A model generated the notes under the pieces. The model saw only the letters and a list, made by a program, of their open reading frames with translations. It made no database searches and was not told where the DNA came from. The position numbers were made by a program, and so were the translations under genes. From a virus (lineage: Duplodnaviria > Heunggongvirae > Uroviricota > Caudoviricetes), in IMG/VR virus record IMGVR_UViG_2609459803_000009: 7,296 nucleotides of DNA. One strand, 5' to 3'. Of the stretch, positions 1-7,123 are shown one piece after another (positions within the stretch are counted from its first letter, which is position 1; each line of letters opens with the position of its first letter).

Positions 1-1170
1 TCACTCCTCATTTTCTTCTGAGCTGTACTCCACATCGGAGAGTTTAACCTCAAGCTCTAAGCCCGTCGTGAAACCGTTATTATTGAGGTTGTGGGTCACC
101 TTGCTGATTAACCATGCCTGCTCGTCTATGACGCGCTTAAAGCCTGACACGCGTACAGGCGTCTCAGGAAATAAATCCGCTCGCCCTAGCGCCAGTGTGA
201 TTGAAAACTCCGCAACGCCTCGCTGCAGTTTATCCCACTTAGCCTGAGCGGCGCGCATTGCCTGTGCCTTTGAGGCATAGACCGTCGTCAGCGCCAGCAC
301 GTTATCGGCTTCACCGGCCATGTACTCACCCTCACGTGCTTCCTGTTCTTTTTTGACCTTTGTCTTTTTGCTGACCGGCTTTGCTTTTGGGTGTTCCAGT
401 GCGCGCAGGTGCTTCTCTTTTGGCTTGCGTTTCAGCGTTACTTTCTGCTTTTGTGGCTTCGGGTCTTTGGTGTGCAACCATTTAGCAGTGACGCCGGTAT
501 AAGCCCCACGGTCGGCAATGGCAAACTGATGACGGTCACCATCACTGCGGGTCAGCGTCATTTGCGGGACGGGTTTGCCGCTGGCCGTCATCGCACTACC
601 GGCTTTCAGAAACAACAGTTTCCCTGCCTTCACCGATACCGTTGCCCCGTTGCGGTCAGCCAGTCGACTCAAAAATACCGCGTCGGATTCCTGCGACTGG
701 TCGATATGCGGTACCGGGATTTTTTTCAGCGATTCCGCAATGTTGGCCGTCAGTTTGTTGCGCTTTGCGATGGTACTGACCAGTTCGCCGATGGTGGTGT
801 CGTGCCATGACTCTTCACGCCTGGAATTTAGCGTGCCGCGAAAGTCCGCGCTGCGCGCCCGGATGGTCAGGGTATCAGGAGCCCCCCGGTGCTCAATCTC
901 ATCGACCGTAAAATCCCCCTTATTCAGCAGCGCCGAACCCTGCCAGCCAAGCCACAACGTCAGCACTGCCCCGCGCAGGGGTAACTCGACTTTCCCATCG
1001 GTGTCATCGAGCTCAATGTCGAGCTGGTCAGCTTCAAAGCCCCTATTGTCCGTCATGGTGAGAGAAATCAGCCGGTCGCTGAAGTTGCTGGTAATGTCCT
1101 GACTGTTCAGCGTCAGCATAAAAGCCGGTGCAAGGCTGGCACCGGCGTCAATTGCCATCCCCGTTATCAT
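1..1170 (-). CDS. D: P2-type late tail protein D (gpD, baseplate/tail-hub family)
   Basis: 389-aa minus-strand ORF with ATG at 1170-1168 and stop at the window edge (3-1). The translation has the conserved gpD character (RGFEADQLDIELDD, GDFTVDEIEHRGAPD, RSADFRGTLNSRRE, GAYTGVTAKWLH, EGEYMAGEADN) and an internal Lys/Pro-rich stretch. It is last in the conserved FI-FII-E-T-U-D order, and its ATG overlaps the U stop (ATGA). Confidence 0.9.
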   Translation of the reverse strand: MITGMAIDAGASLAPAFMLTLNSQDITSNFSDRLISLTMTDNRGFEADQLDIELDDTDGKVELPLRGAVLTLWLGWQGSALLNKGDFTVDEIEHRGAPDTLTIRARSADFRGTLNSRREESWHDTTIGELVSTIAKRNKLTANIAESLKKIPVPHIDQSQESDAVFLSRLADRNGATVSVKAGKLLFLKAGSAMTASGKPVPQMTLTRSDGDRHQFAIADRGAYTGVTAKWLHTKDPKPQKQKVTLKRKPKEKHLRALEHPKAKPVSKKTKVKKEQEAREGEYMAGEADNVLALTTVYASKAQAMRAAQAKWDKLQRGVAEFSITLALGRADLFPETPVRVSGFKRVIDEQAWLISKVTHNLNNNGFTTGLELEVKLSDVEYSSEENEE

Positions 1171-1652
1171 GCAGTGAAACCTCCGGGCATACCCTGCAGT
1201 TTATCTGTCAAATTACCGGCAGAGCCGAGAAGCTCACTGGCCTGTTTATTCAGGTCACCAAACATCTCTGTCAGCGATTCATCAACCCGTTTTAGCGAAA
1301 GCGTGAAATCAATCTTTCTGGCCGCACCATCACTGAAAAACTCGGTGCGTGTAGTCGATACTTTATCGACGATATACATCCCGAGGATATTTCCGGTTCC
1401 CTCTATCAACGGCCACGCTCTGCCTTCATTGGCCATCACCTCTACAGCCTTTAGTGAGATCCAACCGCCAGTGATAGCGGGGTATAGCGTACCAGCAAGC
1501 TGTATCGAGGTTTCCCCCTCGCCAAGAAACTGATAGGCAGGTGGTTTACCCACCCGGTCATTGGACACCCAGCGATAATCTTTCGAATGCTGCATCGACT
1601 GGTAAGGCAGGGTGCGAAGTTCAAACACAAACATTCCGAGAGCAAGCATCAT
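1167..1652 (-). CDS. U: P2-type tail protein U (gpU, tail completion/terminator-like)
   Basis: 161-aa ORF starting ATGATG at 1652, with a strong Shine-Dalgarno (GAGGGGG) about 8 nt upstream and lying 13 nt after the T stop. Position between T and D and a size of about 160 aa match P2 gpU. The stop TGA (1169-1167) overlaps the D start. Confidence 0.85.
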   Translation of the reverse strand: MMLALGMFVFELRTLPYQSMQHSKDYRWVSNDRVGKPPAYQFLGEGETSIQLAGTLYPAITGGWISLKAVEVMANEGRAWPLIEGTGNILGMYIVDKVSTTRTEFFSDGAARKIDFTLSLKRVDESLTEMFGDLNKQASELLGSAGNLTDKLQGMPGGFTA

Positions 1653-1665
1653 CGTTTAATCCCCC

Positions 1666-4110
1666 TCAATAGTCGTGGGTCATGTTGGCACGCTGGCGGG
1701 CGCGTTTATCGCGCTCAATCTGTTCGAGCGTGTCGCGTAGTTGTCTGTCAAGCTGATGCCCCGGCGCAACACCTCCCGGCAGATTGATGTTGTATTCGCT
1801 TTTGCTCTGGTCAATGTAAGAGCGCCCCGCCGGTGCGGTAACTGGCTGATAAGCCTGATAGCCGCCATATGTGCTGGTTGCCGGGATGTAGGAATTACCC
1901 TGTGTGGCGGCATTGGTTTTGGCGGCGGTCTGGTCGAGGCTGTCCGACTCTTTGTTGATGATGCCGAGCTTTTCGAGAAGCCAGTCGACACCGCTGCGCA
2001 GCTTGTTAAAAACATTGAGCGGAGCCATCAAGGCAGAGGCCAGTGCCTGACCAAATATGACGCCGACATTTTTGCAGCTATCAAGCGTTTCCTGCGTGGC
2101 CTTAACCGGTGCTATCAGGTCTTTAAACCACTGCCAGACGCCGCGCAGTTTCTCGCCGAGACCATCAAAAATGGGAGCCAGTGGAGCGAACATTTCCCCG
2201 ACTGGGGCAAAGGCACTCATGATGCCCTCAATCACTCCCGAGAAAAATGCGCTGATGGGCTCCCAATATTTACGGATGAGTAGCGCCCCCGCCACAATCG
2301 CCGCACCGACGGCCACTATCGGCCAGGTAATCGCACCGAGCGCTGTCGCAATGGCACTACCGACGACAGTAAAGACCGTACCCAGCACGCCAGCAGCGGC
2401 GATAATGGCATTAATTCCCATGACAACCGGCCACGCAACGAGACCAATGCCGCCGATGATACCAATCAGCGCCAGCGCACCACCGGCAATAATCCCGATA
2501 GTTGTCGTCAGCCCTTTGTTTTTCTGGATCCAGCCGTCGAGCTTCAACACGTATTGTGTGGCGGTTTGGGTGAGTTTGCGCAGCGAGCCCTCTTGCTGGT
2601 CAAAAAGGTCGGTACCGACAGCCTCATAAGCAGACTGGAACTCTTTAAAATCACCGCCGAGGTTGTCCTGCATAATTTTAACAAGCTCTGCGGTTTTTCC
2701 GTCTGAGGCTTTCAGGGTGGAGGTTAGCTGGTCAAGTTTGCCGGTTGAGGCGGCAGTCATGAGCACTGCCGCCGCCGAACTGGCTTCCTCACCGAATATC
2801 GTTTTCATGTATTCGGCTTGTTGACCGGTGCCGAGATTGTTACGCTCAAAACTGGCCTGCATTTCCTTGAGGATGGTAAAAATCGGGCGCGTGTTGCCTT
2901 TACTGTCGGAAGTTTTGACACCCAGCTCCTTAAGCGCATCCCACGCTTTACCGGTCGGAGCCTGCAGGCGGCTTAAAACCGCACGGCTCCCGGTGCCGGC
3001 CATCGAGCCGGTGATTTTGGCGTCATGCAGGGCGCCCACCATTGCGGCAGTTTCTTCAATGCTGACACCGGCATTTTTCGCCACCGGCGCGGCGTATGTC
3101 AGCGCATCGCTCAGCCCGTCGAAATCGGCAGCAGTTTTATTCATCACCGTCGACAGAACGTCGCCAATGTGCGCCACCTTGTCATTGGAAAGCTGAAACG
3201 CAGAGCGCATCCCCATCAGTAATGCGGCGTTTTCTTCCATCGTGCGACGGTTGGCAAGCGCCATATTGAGGGTGACCGGTGTCGTCGCCTGAATGGCTGC
3301 CGCATCGCCACCCCCTTTGGCGATAATAATCTGCGCACTGGCTGCATCATCAGCAGAAGCGGCTGTATTGTCACCGAGCTGGCGTGCCTGTTTGCGTAGC
3401 GCCTCCATTTCTGGTGACTGCTTATCGACCCCGAGCACAGCCTGCAGCTCGGAGTTTTTTTGCGCAAAGTCATAACCGGGCATCAGCAATTTAACCCCGG
3501 CCATCGTTCCCGCTGTCGCAATACCGACCCCGGCAGCACCTGCAGCGGCCATGTTACCGGCAAGTTCCTTACCCGATTTATATCGCTCTTTCACTCGGTT
3601 TAGGTGCGCCTGCTGTGCGCTGACCTTCGCCAATGCTTCGCGCTGCCGGTTGAGCTGCGCCGTCGTCTCGCTGATGCGTGTTTTAAGCCCCCGCTCATCG
3701 TTTGCCAGATTGCGGGTATTGATACCGGCGGCACCCAGCTCGCGTTGCTGGCGTTTAACCGACTCGGTGAGGCTGTTGTATTTAACCTGCAGCCCCTCGG
3801 CGGCACGTTTTGCGGATTCGAGCACCTGTGCCTGCGCTCGCGTCGGGCGCTCAGTATTTTTGAATTGCGTGGCAAGCGCTTCAGCCTCGCGCTTTGCCTT
3901 CTCCAGCGACTGGCCGGTTACGGCCAGTTGAGCGCTGGTTTTGCGAAAGCCGTCGATTTTCGCGGCCTGCCCGTTCAGGTCACGCAGCCCTTTTTGTGTG
4001 TCGCGAATATCGCCCGACAGGGTTTTACTCGCGGTCTGGATGGATTTAAGCGGTCGGGTCGCCTGGTCGACCGCTTTCAGCAAAACCTCAAGTCTCAGGT
4101 TATTACTCAT
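1666..4110 (-). CDS. T: Tail tape measure protein (gpT)
   Basis: 814-aa ORF. The N-terminal third is charged and coiled-coil-like (repeated Q/R/E/K/A heptad-like runs). A long Gly/Ala/Ile-rich hydrophobic block sits at about residues 534-612, typical of tape-measure proteins. It lies directly downstream of the E/E' frameshift pair, and its ATG (4110-4108) overlaps the E' stop. Confidence 0.92.
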   Translation of the reverse strand: MSNNLRLEVLLKAVDQATRPLKSIQTASKTLSGDIRDTQKGLRDLNGQAAKIDGFRKTSAQLAVTGQSLEKAKREAEALATQFKNTERPTRAQAQVLESAKRAAEGLQVKYNSLTESVKRQQRELGAAGINTRNLANDERGLKTRISETTAQLNRQREALAKVSAQQAHLNRVKERYKSGKELAGNMAAAGAAGVGIATAGTMAGVKLLMPGYDFAQKNSELQAVLGVDKQSPEMEALRKQARQLGDNTAASADDAASAQIIIAKGGGDAAAIQATTPVTLNMALANRRTMEENAALLMGMRSAFQLSNDKVAHIGDVLSTVMNKTAADFDGLSDALTYAAPVAKNAGVSIEETAAMVGALHDAKITGSMAGTGSRAVLSRLQAPTGKAWDALKELGVKTSDSKGNTRPIFTILKEMQASFERNNLGTGQQAEYMKTIFGEEASSAAAVLMTAASTGKLDQLTSTLKASDGKTAELVKIMQDNLGGDFKEFQSAYEAVGTDLFDQQEGSLRKLTQTATQYVLKLDGWIQKNKGLTTTIGIIAGGALALIGIIGGIGLVAWPVVMGINAIIAAAGVLGTVFTVVGSAIATALGAITWPIVAVGAAIVAGALLIRKYWEPISAFFSGVIEGIMSAFAPVGEMFAPLAPIFDGLGEKLRGVWQWFKDLIAPVKATQETLDSCKNVGVIFGQALASALMAPLNVFNKLRSGVDWLLEKLGIINKESDSLDQTAAKTNAATQGNSYIPATSTYGGYQAYQPVTAPAGRSYIDQSKSEYNINLPGGVAPGHQLDRQLRDTLEQIERDKRARQRANMTHDY

Positions 4111-4590
4111 TGTGGTGTCCGCTACGCTGCAGCGCCTTTTCGCGCCATGTGATGAGCTCGGTCAGGCTCAGGGAATAGAGCTCTGATGGCGACCAGTGGA
4201 ATATCACTGCAATATCCGCCATCAGGTCATCGGTCGACAGGTCGGGCGGAAAATCTACTCCGCCGAAGCCGGTGACAAAAAACCAATCACCTTAGCGGCC
4301 AGCGAAAGCATATCGGGCAGGTTCATCGCGGTTAGCTCCTGCGTGGTGAGCGCGGGATAGGTCATGCGGGGCAGCACTTTAATCAGCGCATCGACCTCGG
4401 ACTGCGCCACCGCCGCCAGACTGACACCGCGCAGGGTACCGGCGTTCGGCTCAATCAGGGTGACTTTATCAATCGTCTGACCGGCGCGCTTAATCGGCTT
4501 GTCGAGGGTCACGACGTTCGGGTTTACGGTGTCAATTTCATTGCCAGCCGTATCAACAAATTCAGCGGTTTTACGTGGTGCTTTTGCCAT
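4103..4590 (-). CDS. E+E': Tail assembly chaperone E+E' (gpE+E'), made by a programmed -1 frameshift at 4282-4276
   Basis: Zero frame 4590 to 4279, then a -1 slip on T-TTT-TTG. The -1 frame stays open for 57 codons (VTGFGGVDFPPDLSTDDLMADIAVIFHWSPSELYSLSLTELITWREKALQRSGHHNE) and ends at TAA 4105-4103, overlapping the T start. The predicted product is about 162 aa. This is the canonical arrangement upstream of tape-measure genes. Confidence 0.8.
4255..4590 (-). CDS. E: Tail assembly chaperone E (gpE, unshifted product)
   Basis: 111-aa ORF with ATG at 4590-4588 and stop TAG at 4257-4255. It sits between FII and T, and the slippery heptamer lies 6 codons before its stop. Confidence 0.85.
   Translation of the reverse strand: MAKAPRKTAEFVDTAGNEIDTVNPNVVTLDKPIKRAGQTIDKVTLIEPNAGTLRGVSLAAVAQSEVDALIKVLPRMTYPALTTQELTAMNLPDMLSLAAKVIGFLSPASAE
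4276..4282 (-). promoter_or_regulatory. Slippery heptanucleotide T-TTT-TTG for -1 programmed ribosomal frameshifting (E to E')
   Basis: The plus strand shows AAAAAA at 4277-4282 plus C at 4276, which is TTTTTTG on the coding strand, in the frame GGT-TTT-TTG of gpE. The -1 frame downstream is open until it overlaps the T start. Confidence 0.8.
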
Positions 4591-4638
4591 GATGTTTTTC
4601 TCTGCTCTGAAAGGGGATTAATAACCGGCCAGCCATGC

Positions 4639-4648
4639 TGACCGGTCA
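4639..4648. repeat. Perfect 10-bp palindrome TGACCGGTCA in the FII-E intergenic spacer, within a larger imperfect dyad CCATGcTGACCGGTCATGG (4633-4651)
   Basis: Read directly from the sequence. It lies in the 63-bp untranslated gap between the FII stop (4654) and the E start (4590). Function is unknown. Confidence 0.5.
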
Positions 4649-4653
4649 TGGAA

Positions 4654-5172
4654 TTACAGCCCGATTGCGCGGCGGTGCTGTTCCAGACGGTCGACGCCGT
4701 TCACCTTCTCGACCATGTTGACGGTGTCGATTTCGATGACGTCGCTACCATCAATCGTCAGGCGGTAATAGGTGCAGACCGTCGACAGTTTGGTCGAGGT
4801 GTTTTCACCCTGCTTATTTTCGCCGCCGTCGATTTCTTTATGACGGCCACGCATGACCACCTCGACCGCGTTGATTTCGCCGGTGTCGTCGCGCTGGTAG
4901 GATCCAGCAAAACGCAGCGGCACAGCGTCAGCACCCGGCGCGGCGTACTGCGCCCACAGAGCCACATCAGGCTGGCCACCGACAGACCACTCGACGGTTA
5001 ACGCATCATCGTCGAGACCGAGGTCAATCGCCGCCGCGCCATTCATGCCGCCGCCGCGATAGTTTTCGAGTTTGCGGGTCAGCTTCGGCAGCGTCACGGA
5101 TTCAACAACGCCCATATAGCTAAGGCCGTCGTTAAACATGTTCAGATATTTGAGTTTGCGGGGTAGTGCCAT
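4654..5172 (-). CDS. FII: Major tail tube protein (gpFII)
   Basis: 172-aa ORF with ATG at 5172-5170 and stop TAA at 4656-4654. A Shine-Dalgarno AGGAG lies in the 15-bp gap after FI. Size and position immediately downstream of the sheath gene match P2 FII. Confidence 0.88.
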   Translation of the reverse strand: MALPRKLKYLNMFNDGLSYMGVVESVTLPKLTRKLENYRGGGMNGAAAIDLGLDDDALTVEWSVGGQPDVALWAQYAAPGADAVPLRFAGSYQRDDTGEINAVEVVMRGRHKEIDGGENKQGENTSTKLSTVCTYYRLTIDGSDVIEIDTVNMVEKVNGVDRLEQHRRAIGL

Positions 5173-5187
5173 GTTGTTTCAGGCTCC

Positions 5188-6366
5188 TTAGCTGTTGACC
5201 GATTCGGCCAGATTCACCAGATATTTATCGGTGATACGCTGGCGCAGGGTCAGGCTTTCCAGTGGTGGAACCGGCGTATAGTCGTAGTCGATATACAGTT
5301 TCCCGGCCTTGAGGGTTTCCTTGTCATTCGATTCCTCGTCGAACCAGCATTCACCGTCCACGATGTAGCCATTTGATTTCAGCTCGCGGAATTTGGCATT
5401 AATGCCGTCGACAATGTCACGGATGAGCGATGCGGTAATGGGCTTATCGACCGCCCACATGTGAGCCTCGGCCATCGTGTCGGCCAGCACCTGCGCGGTG
5501 CGGGTGTAGTTCTCAAACAGGAAAAGCGGGTCATCAGAGCAGGTGCGGTTACCCCAAAAGCGGAAACCATCTTTGCGCACCAGCGTCGTGACCCCGGCCT
5601 CGTTGAGCAGGTCAGCATCGGTACCAGATGCCTGCAAATCCCAAAACACTGAGGCGCTGATGCCGGTGACACCCTGCACGCCGACGTTAGACAGGGTTTT
5701 ATGCCAGCCGACGGTCTGGTCGATGTAGGCGCGCAGGCCGAGTGCGCGCGCAGTGGCGTAGGCTGTTGCAGTGGCGTTCGCGGTGGTGTCCCATGCGAGG
5801 AAATCAGGCCAGATAAGCATCAGTTCGCGCTGGCTGAAATTCTCGCGATAGGCCATCGCCTCGGAAATAGTCTTACAGCCCCATGCACTGACATAGCCAA
5901 AGGCGCGCAGGCTGATACAGACCGACGCAAGTGCGACTGCGACCTCTTTGGTATCGAGCCCCGGCACGCCGAGAATGCGCGGCTTAACGCCGGTGACCGC
6001 TTCGGCAGTCAACAGCGCCTTGATACCGGTGTATTTACCGTTCTCATCCGTGCCGCCGATGATATTTGAAATGGTCTGCGCTTCCGCGTCTTCTCCGGTA
6101 CCTTCGGCAACACGCACGACAACGGTGACGGGCTTTGACTGGTCGGCGATGGCCTGCAGGGAGGCAGACAGCGTGCCTTTTTTACCGGCTTTCGCAATGG
6201 CGCTCTGCACATTGGTAATCAGTACCGGCTCGTTGAGGGGGAATGTCGCGGCATCCGCATCGCTGGCCGTGCAGACCATGCCGACAATTGCGGTTGCAAC
6301 AGTGGAAATGACGCGGGTGCCGTCGTTAATCTCAAGCACCTGCACGCCGTGGTGAAAATCACTCAT
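5188..6366 (-). CDS. FI: Contractile tail sheath protein (gpFI)
   Basis: The open frame runs 6393 to 5188 (401 codons from a TTG). The ATG at 6366-6364 (MSDFHHGVQVLEINDGTR...) has a GGAG Shine-Dalgarno about 9 nt upstream and matches the N-terminus I remember for P2 FI (MSDYHHGVQVLEIN), giving about 392 aa. The protein has a sheath-like size and conserved blocks (FRFWGNRTCSDDPLFLFENYTRTAQ, KLYIDYDYTPVPPLE). Confidence 0.9.
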   Translation of the reverse strand: MSDFHHGVQVLEINDGTRVISTVATAIVGMVCTASDADAATFPLNEPVLITNVQSAIAKAGKKGTLSASLQAIADQSKPVTVVVRVAEGTGEDAEAQTISNIIGGTDENGKYTGIKALLTAEAVTGVKPRILGVPGLDTKEVAVALASVCISLRAFGYVSAWGCKTISEAMAYRENFSQRELMLIWPDFLAWDTTANATATAYATARALGLRAYIDQTVGWHKTLSNVGVQGVTGISASVFWDLQASGTDADLLNEAGVTTLVRKDGFRFWGNRTCSDDPLFLFENYTRTAQVLADTMAEAHMWAVDKPITASLIRDIVDGINAKFRELKSNGYIVDGECWFDEESNDKETLKAGKLYIDYDYTPVPPLESLTLRQRITDKYLVNLAESVNS

Positions 6367-6393
6367 CCGGTTAACTCCGTGGTTAGTGGGCAA

Positions 6394-6464
6394 GTGTTAT
6401 TGTCCTGGCTGGTCTGTTGAGGGGCTATTTGTCAGTGTTGGGCGATGTCTGACACATTGAGACA
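6394..6464 (-). promoter_or_regulatory. Candidate late (activator-dependent) promoter region for the FI operon, with overlapping dyads TGTCAG-N13-CTGACA (6430-6454) and TGTCT-N9-AGACA (6446-6464)
   Basis: This is the only non-coding DNA upstream of FI. The dyad elements contain TGT...ACA half-sites resembling the P2 Ogr/Delta-type late promoter element (TGT-N12-ACA near -55), but the spacing here is N13 and no clear -35 is seen. This is a positional and motif inference only. Confidence 0.3.
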
Positions 6465-6707
6465 TCAGCAACGGATGCGGGAAATTTTTTGTATAGCGTT
6501 GAGATACCCGAGGCGATCCAGTTTCCAGACCACAAGCGTATCGCCCTCTGACAAGGTTCTGAGTAACCTCTTTAGCCCCGGCCAGTCTGATGTTTTGCCG
6601 CTGATTTTATCTTCGAAAATCAGCTCACATCCTGCGCACTCCAGTTCATTTCGCTGTAATGCGGTGTTCTGGTCATTTGTTGATACACGTACATAACCGA
6701 TAAACAT
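6465..6707 (-). pseudogene. Truncated serine DNA invertase (Hin/Gin/Cin/Pin family), N-terminal stub only
   Basis: The 80-aa ORF reads MFIGYVRVSTNDQNTALQRNELECAGCELIFEDKISGKTSDWPGLKRLLRTLSEGDTLVVWKLDRLG, which carries the resolvase/invertase N-terminus with the catalytic-Ser motif YVRVSTNDQ. It then diverges into 13 unrelated codons (YLNAIQKISRIRC) and stops. A full-length enzyme is about 185-190 aa and would run into FI. The C-terminal helix-turn-helix and most of the catalytic domain are absent. Confidence 0.8.
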
Positions 6708-6761
6708 GAGAAATAACCCGGTAAAAAGTCGGGATCATGCCAGCTGAACGGAATATCTGCA

Positions 6762-6787
6762 TTTTCTAAAAGGTTGGTTTGGGAGAA
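6762..6787. other. Candidate invertase crossover site (hix/gix/cix-like 26-bp site): TTTTCTAAAAGG-TT-GGTTTGGGAGAA
   Basis: The right half GGTTTGGGAGAA resembles the GGTTTTNGATAA half-site of gix/hix as I recall it; the left half is degenerate. The site sits exactly where the start-less tail-fibre frame opens (after TAA at 6767-6769) and about 60 bp upstream of the invertase ATG, as in Mu and Salmonella Hin systems. Similarity was judged by eye. Confidence 0.35.
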
Positions 6788-7123
6788 TTATCTCTGGCTG
6801 GCACTGCATCGGGTGTCATTGGTCTGAATGGGTATGTAACGATTCCGTTAATTATTTCAGGTTCCCGGAGAACACTGATTATTCAGTGGGGGCAGGCGAG
6901 ATTTGGTGGGTCTGGTGGTGAAGATGCCGGATATCTTAATGATTTTCCTTTTGCCTTTCCGTCAGCATGTTATGGAATGATAGTTAGTCATGTGGGGCAT
7001 ACACCTTCAGGCGCAGGAATCCTGTCGGCTTCTGCAATTACATCAAATCAGTTCCGCGGTTTTTCAAGCATAGCGACTGCTGCAAACGCTGTATTAGGTC
7101 GTTATATCGCTATAGGGGTGTAA
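6770..7123 (+). CDS. Tail-fibre C-terminal (receptor-binding) variable segment, probably the alternative, currently uncoupled arm of an invertible segment
   Basis: The plus-strand frame is open from 6770 and stops at TAA 7121-7123. It has no ATG or convincing ribosome-binding site (the ORF track starts it at TTG 6779). It is oriented opposite to the late operon and is followed 1 nt later by a coupled tail-fibre assembly gene. The region is AT-rich. The product is Gly/Ser-rich, about 115 aa, as expected for a fibre tip domain. Confidence 0.5.
   Translation, partial: KVGLGELSLAGTASGVIGLNGYVTIPLIISGSRRTLIIQWGQARFGGSGGEDAGYLNDFPFAFPSACYGMIVSHVGHTPSGAGILSASAITSNQFRGFSSIATAANAVLGRYIAIGV

What the first reader, a model, noticed from the sequence alone, without database searches (positions are those of the whole stretch)
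4103..4590. Intact E/E' programmed -1 frameshift feeding into the tape-measure gene
The heptamer T-TTT-TTG sits 6 codons before the E stop. The -1 frame is open for exactly 57 codons and terminates in ATGAGTAA, where the E' stop and the T start overlap. This is the conserved chaperone frameshift of long-tailed phages (P2 E/E', lambda G/GT). Its intactness argues that the tail module is functional rather than decayed. The -1 product is not in the supplied ORF track because it has no start codon of its own.
Basis: partly seen in the sequence, partly recalled or inferred. Interest (0 to 1): 0.45.

Follow-up and report, generated by a model that had tools for sequence, protein, structure and literature searches.

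The report
Known P2/186-type tail chaperone frameshift
This is the well-known "slippery" site at which some ribosomes slip back one base to make a longer version of a phage tail-assembly helper protein; it is intact here, in a phage-186-like prophage of the kind common in E. coli, and it is already annotated in close relatives, so it is ordinary.

Summary
On the minus strand, gene E (4590..4255, 111 aa) carries an in-phase T_TTT_TTG heptamer (4282..4276), six sense codons before its TAG. The -1 frame is open for 57 codons (4276..4106). It ends in TAA (4105..4103) inside ATGAGTAA, which also holds the ATG of the tape-measure gene T (4110..4108).

The fusion protein hits Pfam Phage_TAC_7 and Phage_P2_GpE. 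It aligns without gaps through the junction to P2 gpE+E' (72% identity, E=2e-75). The DNA is 94-97% identical to phages 186, PSP3 and Midge, where this frameshift is already annotated. In all 96 relatives examined, E' lies in the -1 frame with an in-phase XXXYYYZ heptamer in the overlap; 89 have TTTTTTG.

The window's downstream hairpin is weak and not conserved.

One mildly new lead emerged. A Shine-Dalgarno-like AAGGUGAU (4293..4286) sits just upstream of the heptamer. Its synonymous sites are frozen, and it is the strongest predicted 16S-binding site in the E/E' mRNA.

Two qualifications apply. An internal ATG exists in E' at 4222. "Functional module" is shown only as intact genes, and a neighbouring invertase is truncated.

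Verdict: already known, low interest.

The parts
4255..4590 (-). Gene E, the tail assembly chaperone made by normal (0-frame) translation: 111 aa, TAG stop at 4257..4255.
   Evidence: ORF. Pfam PF10109 Phage_TAC_7, E=9.5e-12. Same length and start as phage 186 H/Orf51.
4276..4282 (-). Slippery heptamer T_TTT_TTG, in phase X_XXY_YYZ with gene E. This is the site of the -1 shift.
   Evidence: Same heptamer and position as the annotated P2 site. TTTTTTG is present in 12/16 diverse Peduoviridae and 77/80 IMG/VR relatives. Gly GGT 61/61, Phe TTT 62/62 and Leu TTG 61/62 are synonymously frozen.
4103..4276 (-). E' extension in the -1 frame: 57 sense codons (4276..4106) plus TAA (4105..4103). It is expressed only as the C-terminus of the 162-aa E+E' fusion, join(4590..4276, 4276..4103).
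   Evidence: Pfam PF06528 Phage_P2_GpE, E=2.7e-20. 72% identical to P2 E+E'. pN/pS is lowest in this frame. Conserved residues show synonymous codon variation.
4258..4291 (-). The 34-nt overlap window in which the 0 and -1 frames are both open. It is bounded upstream by a -1-frame TAA (4294..4292) and downstream by the E stop.
   Evidence: The same 34-nt geometry is found in 186, PSP3, Midge, P2 and YenM_201.16.
4286..4293 (-). Shine-Dalgarno-like AAGGUGAU. GGUGAU ends 3 nt upstream of the heptamer. Candidate upstream modulator of the shift; its function is inferred, not shown.
   Evidence: Strongest predicted pairing to the 16S rRNA 3' end in the whole E/E' mRNA (-10.8 kcal/mol against a mean of -2.1, sd 2.2), and strongest in 76/92 relatives. 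Lys codon AAG 58:1 here against about 50:50 at other conserved Lys columns; Val GTG 54/61.
4235..4271 (-). Weak hairpin downstream of the heptamer (core GGCGGAG/UUCCGCC, with the E stop codon in the loop). Probably not a conserved stimulator.
   Evidence: -16.9 kcal/mol, z=-1.8, 8/200 shuffles fold as well. Only 63% of cells are paired across 46 distinct relatives; core pairs are broken in about half, without compensation. No hairpin in P2 and most others. The literature reports none in P2 (PMC3091744).
1666..4110 (-). Gene T, the tail tape-measure protein, 814 aa. Its ATG (4110..4108) overlaps the E' stop within ATGAGTAA.
   Evidence: Pfam PF10145, E=9e-44. Homologue of 186 G and P2 T.
4654..5172 (-). 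Gene FII, the tail tube protein, immediately upstream of E.
   Evidence: Pfam PF04985, E=4e-60. Homologue of 186 gene I.

Best explanation
The window carries the FI-FII-E/E'-T-U-D tail operon of a phage-186-like (Eganvirus, Peduoviridae) prophage on its minus strand.

Most ribosomes translating gene E stop at TAG (4257..4255) and make the 111-aa chaperone gpE. A minority slip on T_TTT_TTG (4282..4276): the P-site tRNA-Phe and the A-site tRNA-Leu re-pair one base back. Those ribosomes read 57 further codons in the -1 frame and make the 162-aa fusion gpE+E', with the junction ...VIGFL|VTGFGG....

By analogy with P2 E/E+E' and lambda G/GT, both proteins bind the tape-measure protein through the shared E part. 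The rare E' domain recruits or organises tail tube polymerisation. The frameshift therefore fixes the ratio of the two chaperones.

What is shown here: the sequence anatomy, the homology of both halves, and conservation of the frame relation and the heptamer.

What is inferred: that shifting actually occurs in this element, its efficiency, and the chaperone roles. These rest on experiments in P2 and lambda.

A conserved Shine-Dalgarno-like AAGGUGAU just upstream may pause or tension the ribosome to tune the shift. That is also an inference.
For: - Exact anatomy.
- Pfam PF10109 on the 0-frame part and PF06528 on the -1 part. The flanking genes are FII (PF04985) and the tape measure (PF10145).
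- 94-97% nucleotide identity to 186, PSP3, Midge and others, with the frameshift annotated in those records and in P2 at the homologous G.
- The fusion aligns ungapped to P2 gpE+E': 72% identity, E=2e-75. My reconstruction reproduces the published 91-aa and 142-aa P2 products.
- tblastn of the fusion finds two-piece matches in 420 phage records.
- In 16 diverse Peduoviridae and 80 IMG/VR loci, E' is always in the -1 frame and an in-phase XXXYYYZ motif always lies in the overlap. Where it is not TTTTTTG, the motif is CCCTTTC, AAATTTT, GGGAAAG or TTTTTTT/A/C, which is what tandem tRNA slippage predicts.
- All seven heptamer bases are frozen at synonymous sites, while other Gly, Leu and Lys columns vary freely.
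- There is purifying selection in the E' frame.
- Literature: P2 shifts -1 at TTTTTTG to give E and E+E' (PMC3091744). The role of lambda G/GT and its 30:1 ratio are described in PMC5009743.
Against: - There is no protein-level or ribosome-profiling evidence for this particular element.
- U_UUU_UUG is not among the efficient -1 motifs measured in E. coli (PMC4066793).
- No conserved downstream stimulator exists, so efficiency is expected to be low. That fits a chaperone needed in small amounts, but it means the shift cannot be inferred from motif strength alone.
- The primary P2 paper (Christie et al. 2002) was not available to read.
- Whether the prophage is ever induced is unknown.
Confidence: 0.93

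Rival explanations
1. RNA polymerase slips on the T6 run and adds one U to a fraction of transcripts. Normal translation of those transcripts then gives E+E' with the junction GFFV instead of GFLV.
For: The site is a homopolymer run of six T. Adding one U would put E' in frame. Sequence alone cannot tell the two routes apart.
Against: - Six T is short for efficient slippage. Established knowledge is that runs of about 8-9 or more are usually needed.
- Relatives place non-homopolymeric X_XXY_YYZ motifs (CCCTTTC, AAATTTT, GGGAAAG) at the same spot. These fit tRNA re-pairing, not polymerase slippage.
- The seventh base G is conserved in 89/96 relatives, and the run is never lengthened beyond 7.
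- P2 is annotated and described as a translational frameshift.
Confidence: 0.03
2. E' is a small independent gene, translated from its own start: the ATG at 4222, or the CTG at 4240 that PGAP uses. No frameshift is needed.
For: PGAP annotates a stand-alone 45-aa 'GpE family phage tail protein' in the identical E. coli prophage, and several phage records do the same. The Pfam GpE domain begins exactly at the internal Met, fusion residue 124.
Against: - There is no Shine-Dalgarno sequence in front of ATG 4222.
- That Met is replaced by V, A, I or Y in 5 of 14 aligned relatives.
- The frame relation (-1, overlapping the end of E) and the in-phase heptamer are kept in 96/96 relatives, which an independent gene would not require.
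- Heptamer bases are frozen at synonymous sites.
- The P2 product is described as a 142-aa fusion.
Confidence: 0.03
3. The signal is intact in sequence but biologically silent here: the prophage is defective or never induced, so the frameshift site is a recently inherited relic rather than a working device.
For: The neighbouring DNA invertase is truncated to 80 aa and is marked as a pseudogene in the identical E. coli locus. The window departs from its closest E. coli matches beyond about 6787, which suggests mosaicism in the tail-fibre region. Only 7.3 kb is visible.
Against: All six tail-operon genes are full length relative to 186 and P2. In strain EC6622 the same element carries a complete late-gene set from D to the terminase. 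Loss of the invertase only locks the tail-fibre switch and does not disable the tail. This rival concerns expression, not the identity of the feature.
Confidence: 0.12

Closest known systems
Bacteriophage P2 gpE / gpE+E' (-1 frameshift in the FETUD tail operon; Christie et al. 2002, as cited in PMC3091744)
   Same: Same heptamer TTTTTTG, same phase, same 34-nt overlap window, same 57-codon E' extension, and the same ATGAGTAA overlap with T. The fusion is 72% identical and aligns without gaps. Same position between FII and T.
   Different: E here has a 20-residue longer N-terminus (111 against 91 aa; 162 against 142 aa for the fusion). P2 lacks the small hairpin seen in the window.
Phage 186 gene H (Orf51/Orf52), PSP3 gp23/gp23.5 and Escherichia phage Midge CPTMidge_024/025
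   Same: Essentially the same genes: 94-97% nucleotide identity, identical lengths (111 and 162 aa), and identical upstream context TAAGGTGATTGGTTTTTTG. The frameshift is already annotated in all three.
   Different: Only a handful of substitutions. For example, E' S134 replaces P, H159 replaces N, and the codon before the E stop is GAG instead of GAA. That last change lengthens the local hairpin stem by two pairs.
Phage lambda gpG / gpGT tail assembly chaperones (Levin 1993; Xu, Hendrix and Duda 2004, 2013, 2014)
   Same: Same logic: two overlapping ORFs between the major tail gene and the tape-measure gene, a -1 shift near the end of the first ORF, and a low-abundance fusion that links the tape measure to the tail tube subunit (PMC5009743).
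   Different: No detectable sequence similarity was tested or claimed here. The heptamer differs (lambda uses G_GGA_AAG, from my own knowledge). Lambda has a non-contractile tail; this element has a contractile tail.
E. coli dnaX -1 frameshift (A_AAA_AAG with an upstream Shine-Dalgarno-like stimulator and a downstream hairpin)
   Same: A Shine-Dalgarno-like sequence lies upstream of a -1 heptamer (PMC4066793; PMC3711429). Here AAGGUGAU is the strongest predicted 16S-binding site in the mRNA.
   Different: By my own alignment of the 16S pairing register, the spacing is about 2 nt shorter than the 10 nt of dnaX. There is no conserved downstream hairpin. The heptamer is different and weaker. A stimulatory role here is untested.

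Membership tests
P2-type E/E+E' tail assembly chaperone pair with a programmed -1 frameshift | Located between the tail tube gene (FII) and the tape-measure gene (T) in a contractile-tail operon | tested here: met
   FII PF04985 at 4654..5172 and T PF10145 at 1666..4110 flank E/E'. The order FI-FII-E-E'-T-U-D matches P2 and 186.
P2-type E/E+E' tail assembly chaperone pair with a programmed -1 frameshift | The upstream ORF is homologous to gpE (Phage_TAC_7) | tested here: met
   PF10109, E=9.5e-12, 45 bits against a cut-off of 25. 70% identical to P2 E by tblastn.
P2-type E/E+E' tail assembly chaperone pair with a programmed -1 frameshift | The second ORF is in the -1 frame, overlaps the 3' end of E, and is homologous to E' (Phage_P2_GpE) | tested here: met
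   -1 frame with a 34-nt overlap. PF06528, E=2.7e-20, 72 bits against a cut-off of 23.
P2-type E/E+E' tail assembly chaperone pair with a programmed -1 frameshift | An in-phase X_XXY_YYZ slippery heptamer inside the overlap (TTTTTTG in P2) | tested here: met
   T_TTT_TTG at 4282..4276, in phase, homologous to the annotated P2 site.
P2-type E/E+E' tail assembly chaperone pair with a programmed -1 frameshift | The conceptual fusion aligns continuously with gpE+E' across the junction | tested here: met
   99/138 identities, no gaps, E=2e-75. 14-sequence alignment A1.
P2-type E/E+E' tail assembly chaperone pair with a programmed -1 frameshift | Frame relation and slip site conserved across relatives | tested here: met
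   16/16 plus 80/80 loci have E' in the -1 frame with an in-phase heptamer. There is synonymous-site freezing of the heptamer.
P2-type E/E+E' tail assembly chaperone pair with a programmed -1 frameshift | The fusion protein is actually produced and required for tail assembly | not testable with these tools
   This needs a protein or genetic experiment. It is reported for P2 in the literature (PMC3091744, citing Christie 2002). The primary paper is not held.
Frameshift signals with a downstream RNA stimulator (hairpin or pseudoknot) | A stable, conserved structure 5-9 nt downstream of the heptamer | tested here: not met
   The window hairpin has z=-1.4 to -1.8. Only 63% of cells are paired, with no compensatory changes, across 46 distinct relatives. 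Family mean z is -0.87. No Rfam family matches.
Frameshift signals with an upstream Shine-Dalgarno-like stimulator (dnaX / IS911 type) | A conserved sequence complementary to the anti-Shine-Dalgarno sequence at a stimulatory distance upstream of the heptamer | tested here: inconclusive
   AAGGUGAU is present, is the strongest 16S-binding site in the mRNA and is synonymously frozen. However, the spacing is shorter than in dnaX, 3 of 13 divergent U6-type relatives lack it, and the sequences are phylogenetically related.

The most novel reading that the evidence does not exclude
The P2/186-type E/E' signal may not be a bare heptamer. It may include a conserved upstream Shine-Dalgarno-like element, AAGGUGAU (4293..4286), that pairs with the 16S rRNA 3' end in the elongating ribosome and sets the E:E+E' ratio.

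Evidence:
- The Lys codon is AAG 58:1 and the Val codon is GTG 54/61 at this spot. Other conserved Lys and Val columns in the same 62 sequences vary freely.
- It is the strongest predicted anti-Shine-Dalgarno binding site in the E/E' mRNA of the window, and of 76/92 relatives.

I found no mention of such an element in the papers I could read. The primary P2 paper and Xu et al. 2004 were not available, so it may already have been noted.
Probability: 0.35. Interest if true: 0.3.

Novelty: already known. Interest (0 to 1): 0.1.

Why it matters
For this window it matters only as annotation. E' should be annotated as join(4590..4276, 4276..4103), a 162-aa E+E' fusion. It should not be left out, and it should not be called as a 45-aa stand-alone 'GpE family' gene as PGAP does in the identical E. 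coli prophage. An intact site fits an intact tail operon.

More generally the feature is a textbook case of programmed -1 frameshifting in tailed-phage tail assembly, and it teaches nothing new. The only part that could add knowledge is the synonymously frozen Shine-Dalgarno-like element upstream of the heptamer. If it is functional, it would explain how a weak heptamer with no downstream structure reaches a reproducible shift frequency in P2-like phages.

Tried and rejected
1. Downstream stimulator. I folded 46-87 nt after the heptamer, folded 50 nt in 17 diverse relatives, and counted pairing of the window's hairpin in 46 distinct relatives with slid-partner controls. The hairpin is weak, lineage-specific and lacks compensation, so I rejected it as a conserved element.
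2. Rfam scan of 3950..4750 at a permissive threshold. The only hit was a sub-threshold flpD match on the opposite strand (21.8 bits against a gathering score of 40), which I take as chance.
3. Solved structures by sequence, using the profile of A1. Nothing significant was found.
4. Promoter and terminator scan of 4000..4750. Nothing was found on the minus strand. The one hit is on the plus strand across the E start, and the number of hits is within shuffle expectation.
5. Heptamer frequency test. TTTTTTG alone is not enriched, so the heptamer count is no argument either way.
6. I tried three identifiers for Christie et al. 2002. The paper is not held, so the P2 facts are taken second-hand from PMC3091744.
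7. Independent initiation of E' and transcriptional slippage were considered and rejected on comparative grounds (see the rival explanations).
8. I did not use the large protein searches or structure prediction, because the identification was already unambiguous.
Full report
**1. The observation**

All coordinates are on the minus strand. Gene E runs from ATG 4590 to TAG 4257..4255 and encodes 111 aa. TTTTTTG lies at 4282..4276 and is in phase as (GG)T TTT TTG. Six sense codons follow it before the TAG.

Reading from the G at 4276 in the -1 frame gives 57 sense codons (4276..4106) and then TAA at 4105..4103. The ATG of the next gene is at 4110..4108, so ATGAGTAA contains both the E' stop and the T start.

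The -1 frame is closed by a TAA at 4294..4292. The two frames are therefore both open for only 34 nt, and that stretch holds one in-phase X_XXY_YYZ motif.

The heptamer on its own is not statistically remarkable: 4 copies in the window against 1.8 expected. The significance comes from phase, position, homology and conservation.

**2. What it is**

Pfam places the 0-frame part in PF10109 (Phage_TAC_7, described as 'tail assembly chaperone proteins, E, or 41 or 14'). It places the -1 part in PF06528 (Phage_P2_GpE, E=2.7e-20). The neighbours are:
- tail sheath FI;
- tail tube FII (PF04985);
- tape measure T (PF10145);
- gpU;
- gpD.

The 701 nt around the site are 94-97% identical to 32 phage records, including Escherichia phage 186, Salmonella phage PSP3, Escherichia phage Midge and Erwinia phage EtG. 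In those records:
- 186 annotates Orf51/Orf52 of gene H as 'probably produced by a translational frameshift';
- PSP3 annotates gp23.5 as a joined -1 frameshift CDS;
- Midge annotates a joined CDS as well;
- P2 marks the 'site of -1 translational frameshift' at the homologous G of TTTTTTG.

I rebuilt the conceptual fusions. The P2 reconstruction gives 91 and 142 aa, matching the published sizes (PMC3091744). The window's 162-aa fusion aligns to P2 gpE+E' at 72% identity over 138 residues, with no gap across the junction, E=2e-75.

The window matches 2309 of 5426 complete E. coli genomes in part and 400 over at least 80% of its length. In strain EC6622 it is 100% identical over 1..6787 and sits in a P2-like prophage next to rplS with a complete late-gene set. 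The element is a common 186-like prophage.

**3. Comparative evidence for the mechanism**

tblastn of the fusion against 50,697 phage records finds 420 records, most of those listed matching as two pieces.

I examined 16 relatives spanning 97% to about 30% identity: Escherichia, Salmonella, Yersinia, Klebsiella, Burkholderia, Ralstonia, Mannheimia and Vibrio phages. E' is in the -1 frame in all 16, and an in-phase X_XXY_YYZ motif lies in the overlap in all 16. Twelve have TTTTTTG. The others have TTTTTTT, CCCTTTC, AAATTTT or GGGAAAG.

In 80 further IMG/VR loci the result is the same. All 80 have E' in the -1 frame. Seventy-seven have TTTTTTG and three have TTTTTTA or TTTTTTC.

Replacement of the U6 run by other tandem-slippery motifs argues for dual-tRNA slippage and against polymerase slippage.

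In 62 distinct sequences with the same geometry, the codons making up the heptamer are frozen: Gly GGT 61/61, Phe TTT 62/62, Leu TTG 61/62. Other conserved Gly and Leu columns use three or four codons.

E' is under purifying selection in its own frame. pN/pS is 0.30 against 186 and 0.51 against P2. In the other two frames it is 0.76-2.1. Many conserved E' residues show free synonymous variation.

**4. Stimulators**

The window has a small hairpin (GGCGGAG/UUCCGCC with outer pairs; 4271..4235) of -16.9 kcal/mol. It is only marginally better than shuffles (z=-1.8; 8 of 200 fold as well).

The hairpin is weaker in 186 and PSP3 and absent in P2 and most others. Across 46 distinct relatives only 63% of cells pair, and core pairs are broken in about half without compensation. 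Lynch et al. likewise report no hairpin in P2 or in Burkholderia P2-like phages (PMC3091744). Rfam has nothing for the region.

Upstream is different. AAGGUGAU (4293..4286) abuts the heptamer.
- Its Lys codon is AAG 58:1, whereas the two other conserved Lys columns are about 50:50.
- Its Val codon is GTG 54/61, whereas other Val columns are mixed.
- Background use of AAG in these loci is 31% and of GTG 37%.
- It is the strongest predicted partner of the 16S 3' end anywhere in the E/E' mRNA (-10.8 kcal/mol; mean -2.1, sd 2.2). The same holds in 76 of 92 distinct relatives.

Shine-Dalgarno-like stimulators of -1 shifts are known for dnaX and IS elements (PMC4066793). U_UUU_UUG is not among the efficient E. 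coli motifs in that study, so a helper element would make sense.

Caveats:
- The sequences are related, so these counts are not independent.
- The spacing is about 2 nt shorter than in dnaX, by my own alignment of the pairing register.
- Three of the 13 divergent U6-type relatives lack the motif.
- I could not read the primary P2 paper to see whether this has already been noted.

**5. Rivals**

- Transcriptional slippage is unlikely. The run is short, the seventh base is conserved, and relatives use non-homopolymer motifs.
- Independent initiation of E' is unlikely. PGAP calls a 45-aa CDS at window 4240..4103, and an ATG exists at 4222. But there is no ribosome-binding site. The Met is not conserved. 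The frame and heptamer conservation would also be unexplained.
- Whether the prophage is ever expressed cannot be told from 7.3 kb. The six tail genes are intact, but the adjacent invertase is truncated.

**6. Verdict**

The finding is correct in observation and interpretation. It is a known, already annotated feature of P2/186-like phages in a very common E. coli prophage type. Novelty: already known. Interest: low. The upstream Shine-Dalgarno-like constraint is the only lead worth a small experiment.

Noticed in passing
window 4286..4293 (-): Shine-Dalgarno-like AAGGUGAU immediately upstream of the heptamer. Its synonymous sites are frozen (AAG 58:1, GTG 54/61). It is the strongest predicted 16S-binding site in the E/E' mRNA, and the strongest in 76/92 relatives.
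   Followed up: partly
window 6465..6707 (-): Truncated Pin/Hin-type DNA invertase. It is 80 aa, and only the N-terminal half of the Resolvase domain remains (profile positions 2-76 of 145). PGAP marks it as a pseudogene in the identical E. coli EC6622 locus. The tail-fibre inversion switch is probably locked.
   Followed up: partly
window 6779..7123 (+), and the identity break near 6787: A gp53-like tail-fibre C-terminal ORF lies on the opposite strand, as in invertible tail-fibre segments. The window is 100% identical to EC6622 and TK3888 only up to 6787 and then diverges. The remaining part matches other E. coli prophages at 88-92%. This is a mosaic junction in the host-range region.
   Followed up: partly
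window 4103..4240 (-); L004 16103..16240: PGAP annotates E' as a stand-alone 45-aa 'GpE family phage tail protein' starting at a non-ATG/GTG/TTG codon, rather than as a frameshifted fusion. Several GenBank phage records do the same (YenM_201.16, vB_CB1, SEN4, ST258-KPC3phi16.2). This is a systematic misannotation.
   Followed up: partly
window 4103..4110 (-) and the homologous junctions in L001-L017: The E' stop and the T start overlap or abut in 13 of 17 sequences (the window and 12 of 16 relatives): ATGAGTAA/ATGAGTGA, ATGA, TAAATG, a 2-nt gap (TGAcgATG, TAAcgATG), or an ATG about 12 nt upstream of the stop. Most ribosomes terminate 145 nt upstream at the E stop, so part of tape-measure translation could be coupled to the frameshifted ribosomes. 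Alternatively this is just ordinary phage gene packing.
   Followed up: no
window about 4617..4643 (-): A GC-rich inverted repeat (accggtcagc...gctggccggt) lies between FII and E. It corresponds to the 'tI partial terminator of pJ transcript' annotated in phage 186. The simple terminator scan did not pick it up. It could lower E/T/U/D expression relative to sheath and tube.
   Followed up: no
window 5188..6393 (-): The mechanical ORF for the sheath gene FI starts at TTG 6393 (401 aa). The annotated start in relatives and in PGAP corresponds to ATG 6366 (392 aa, MSDFHH...).
   Followed up: no
window 4292..4294 (-): A -1-frame TAA (from NNT AAG) sits four codons upstream of the slip site, and most P2/186-clade relatives share it. 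It confines any productive -1 shift to a 34-nt window.
   Followed up: partly
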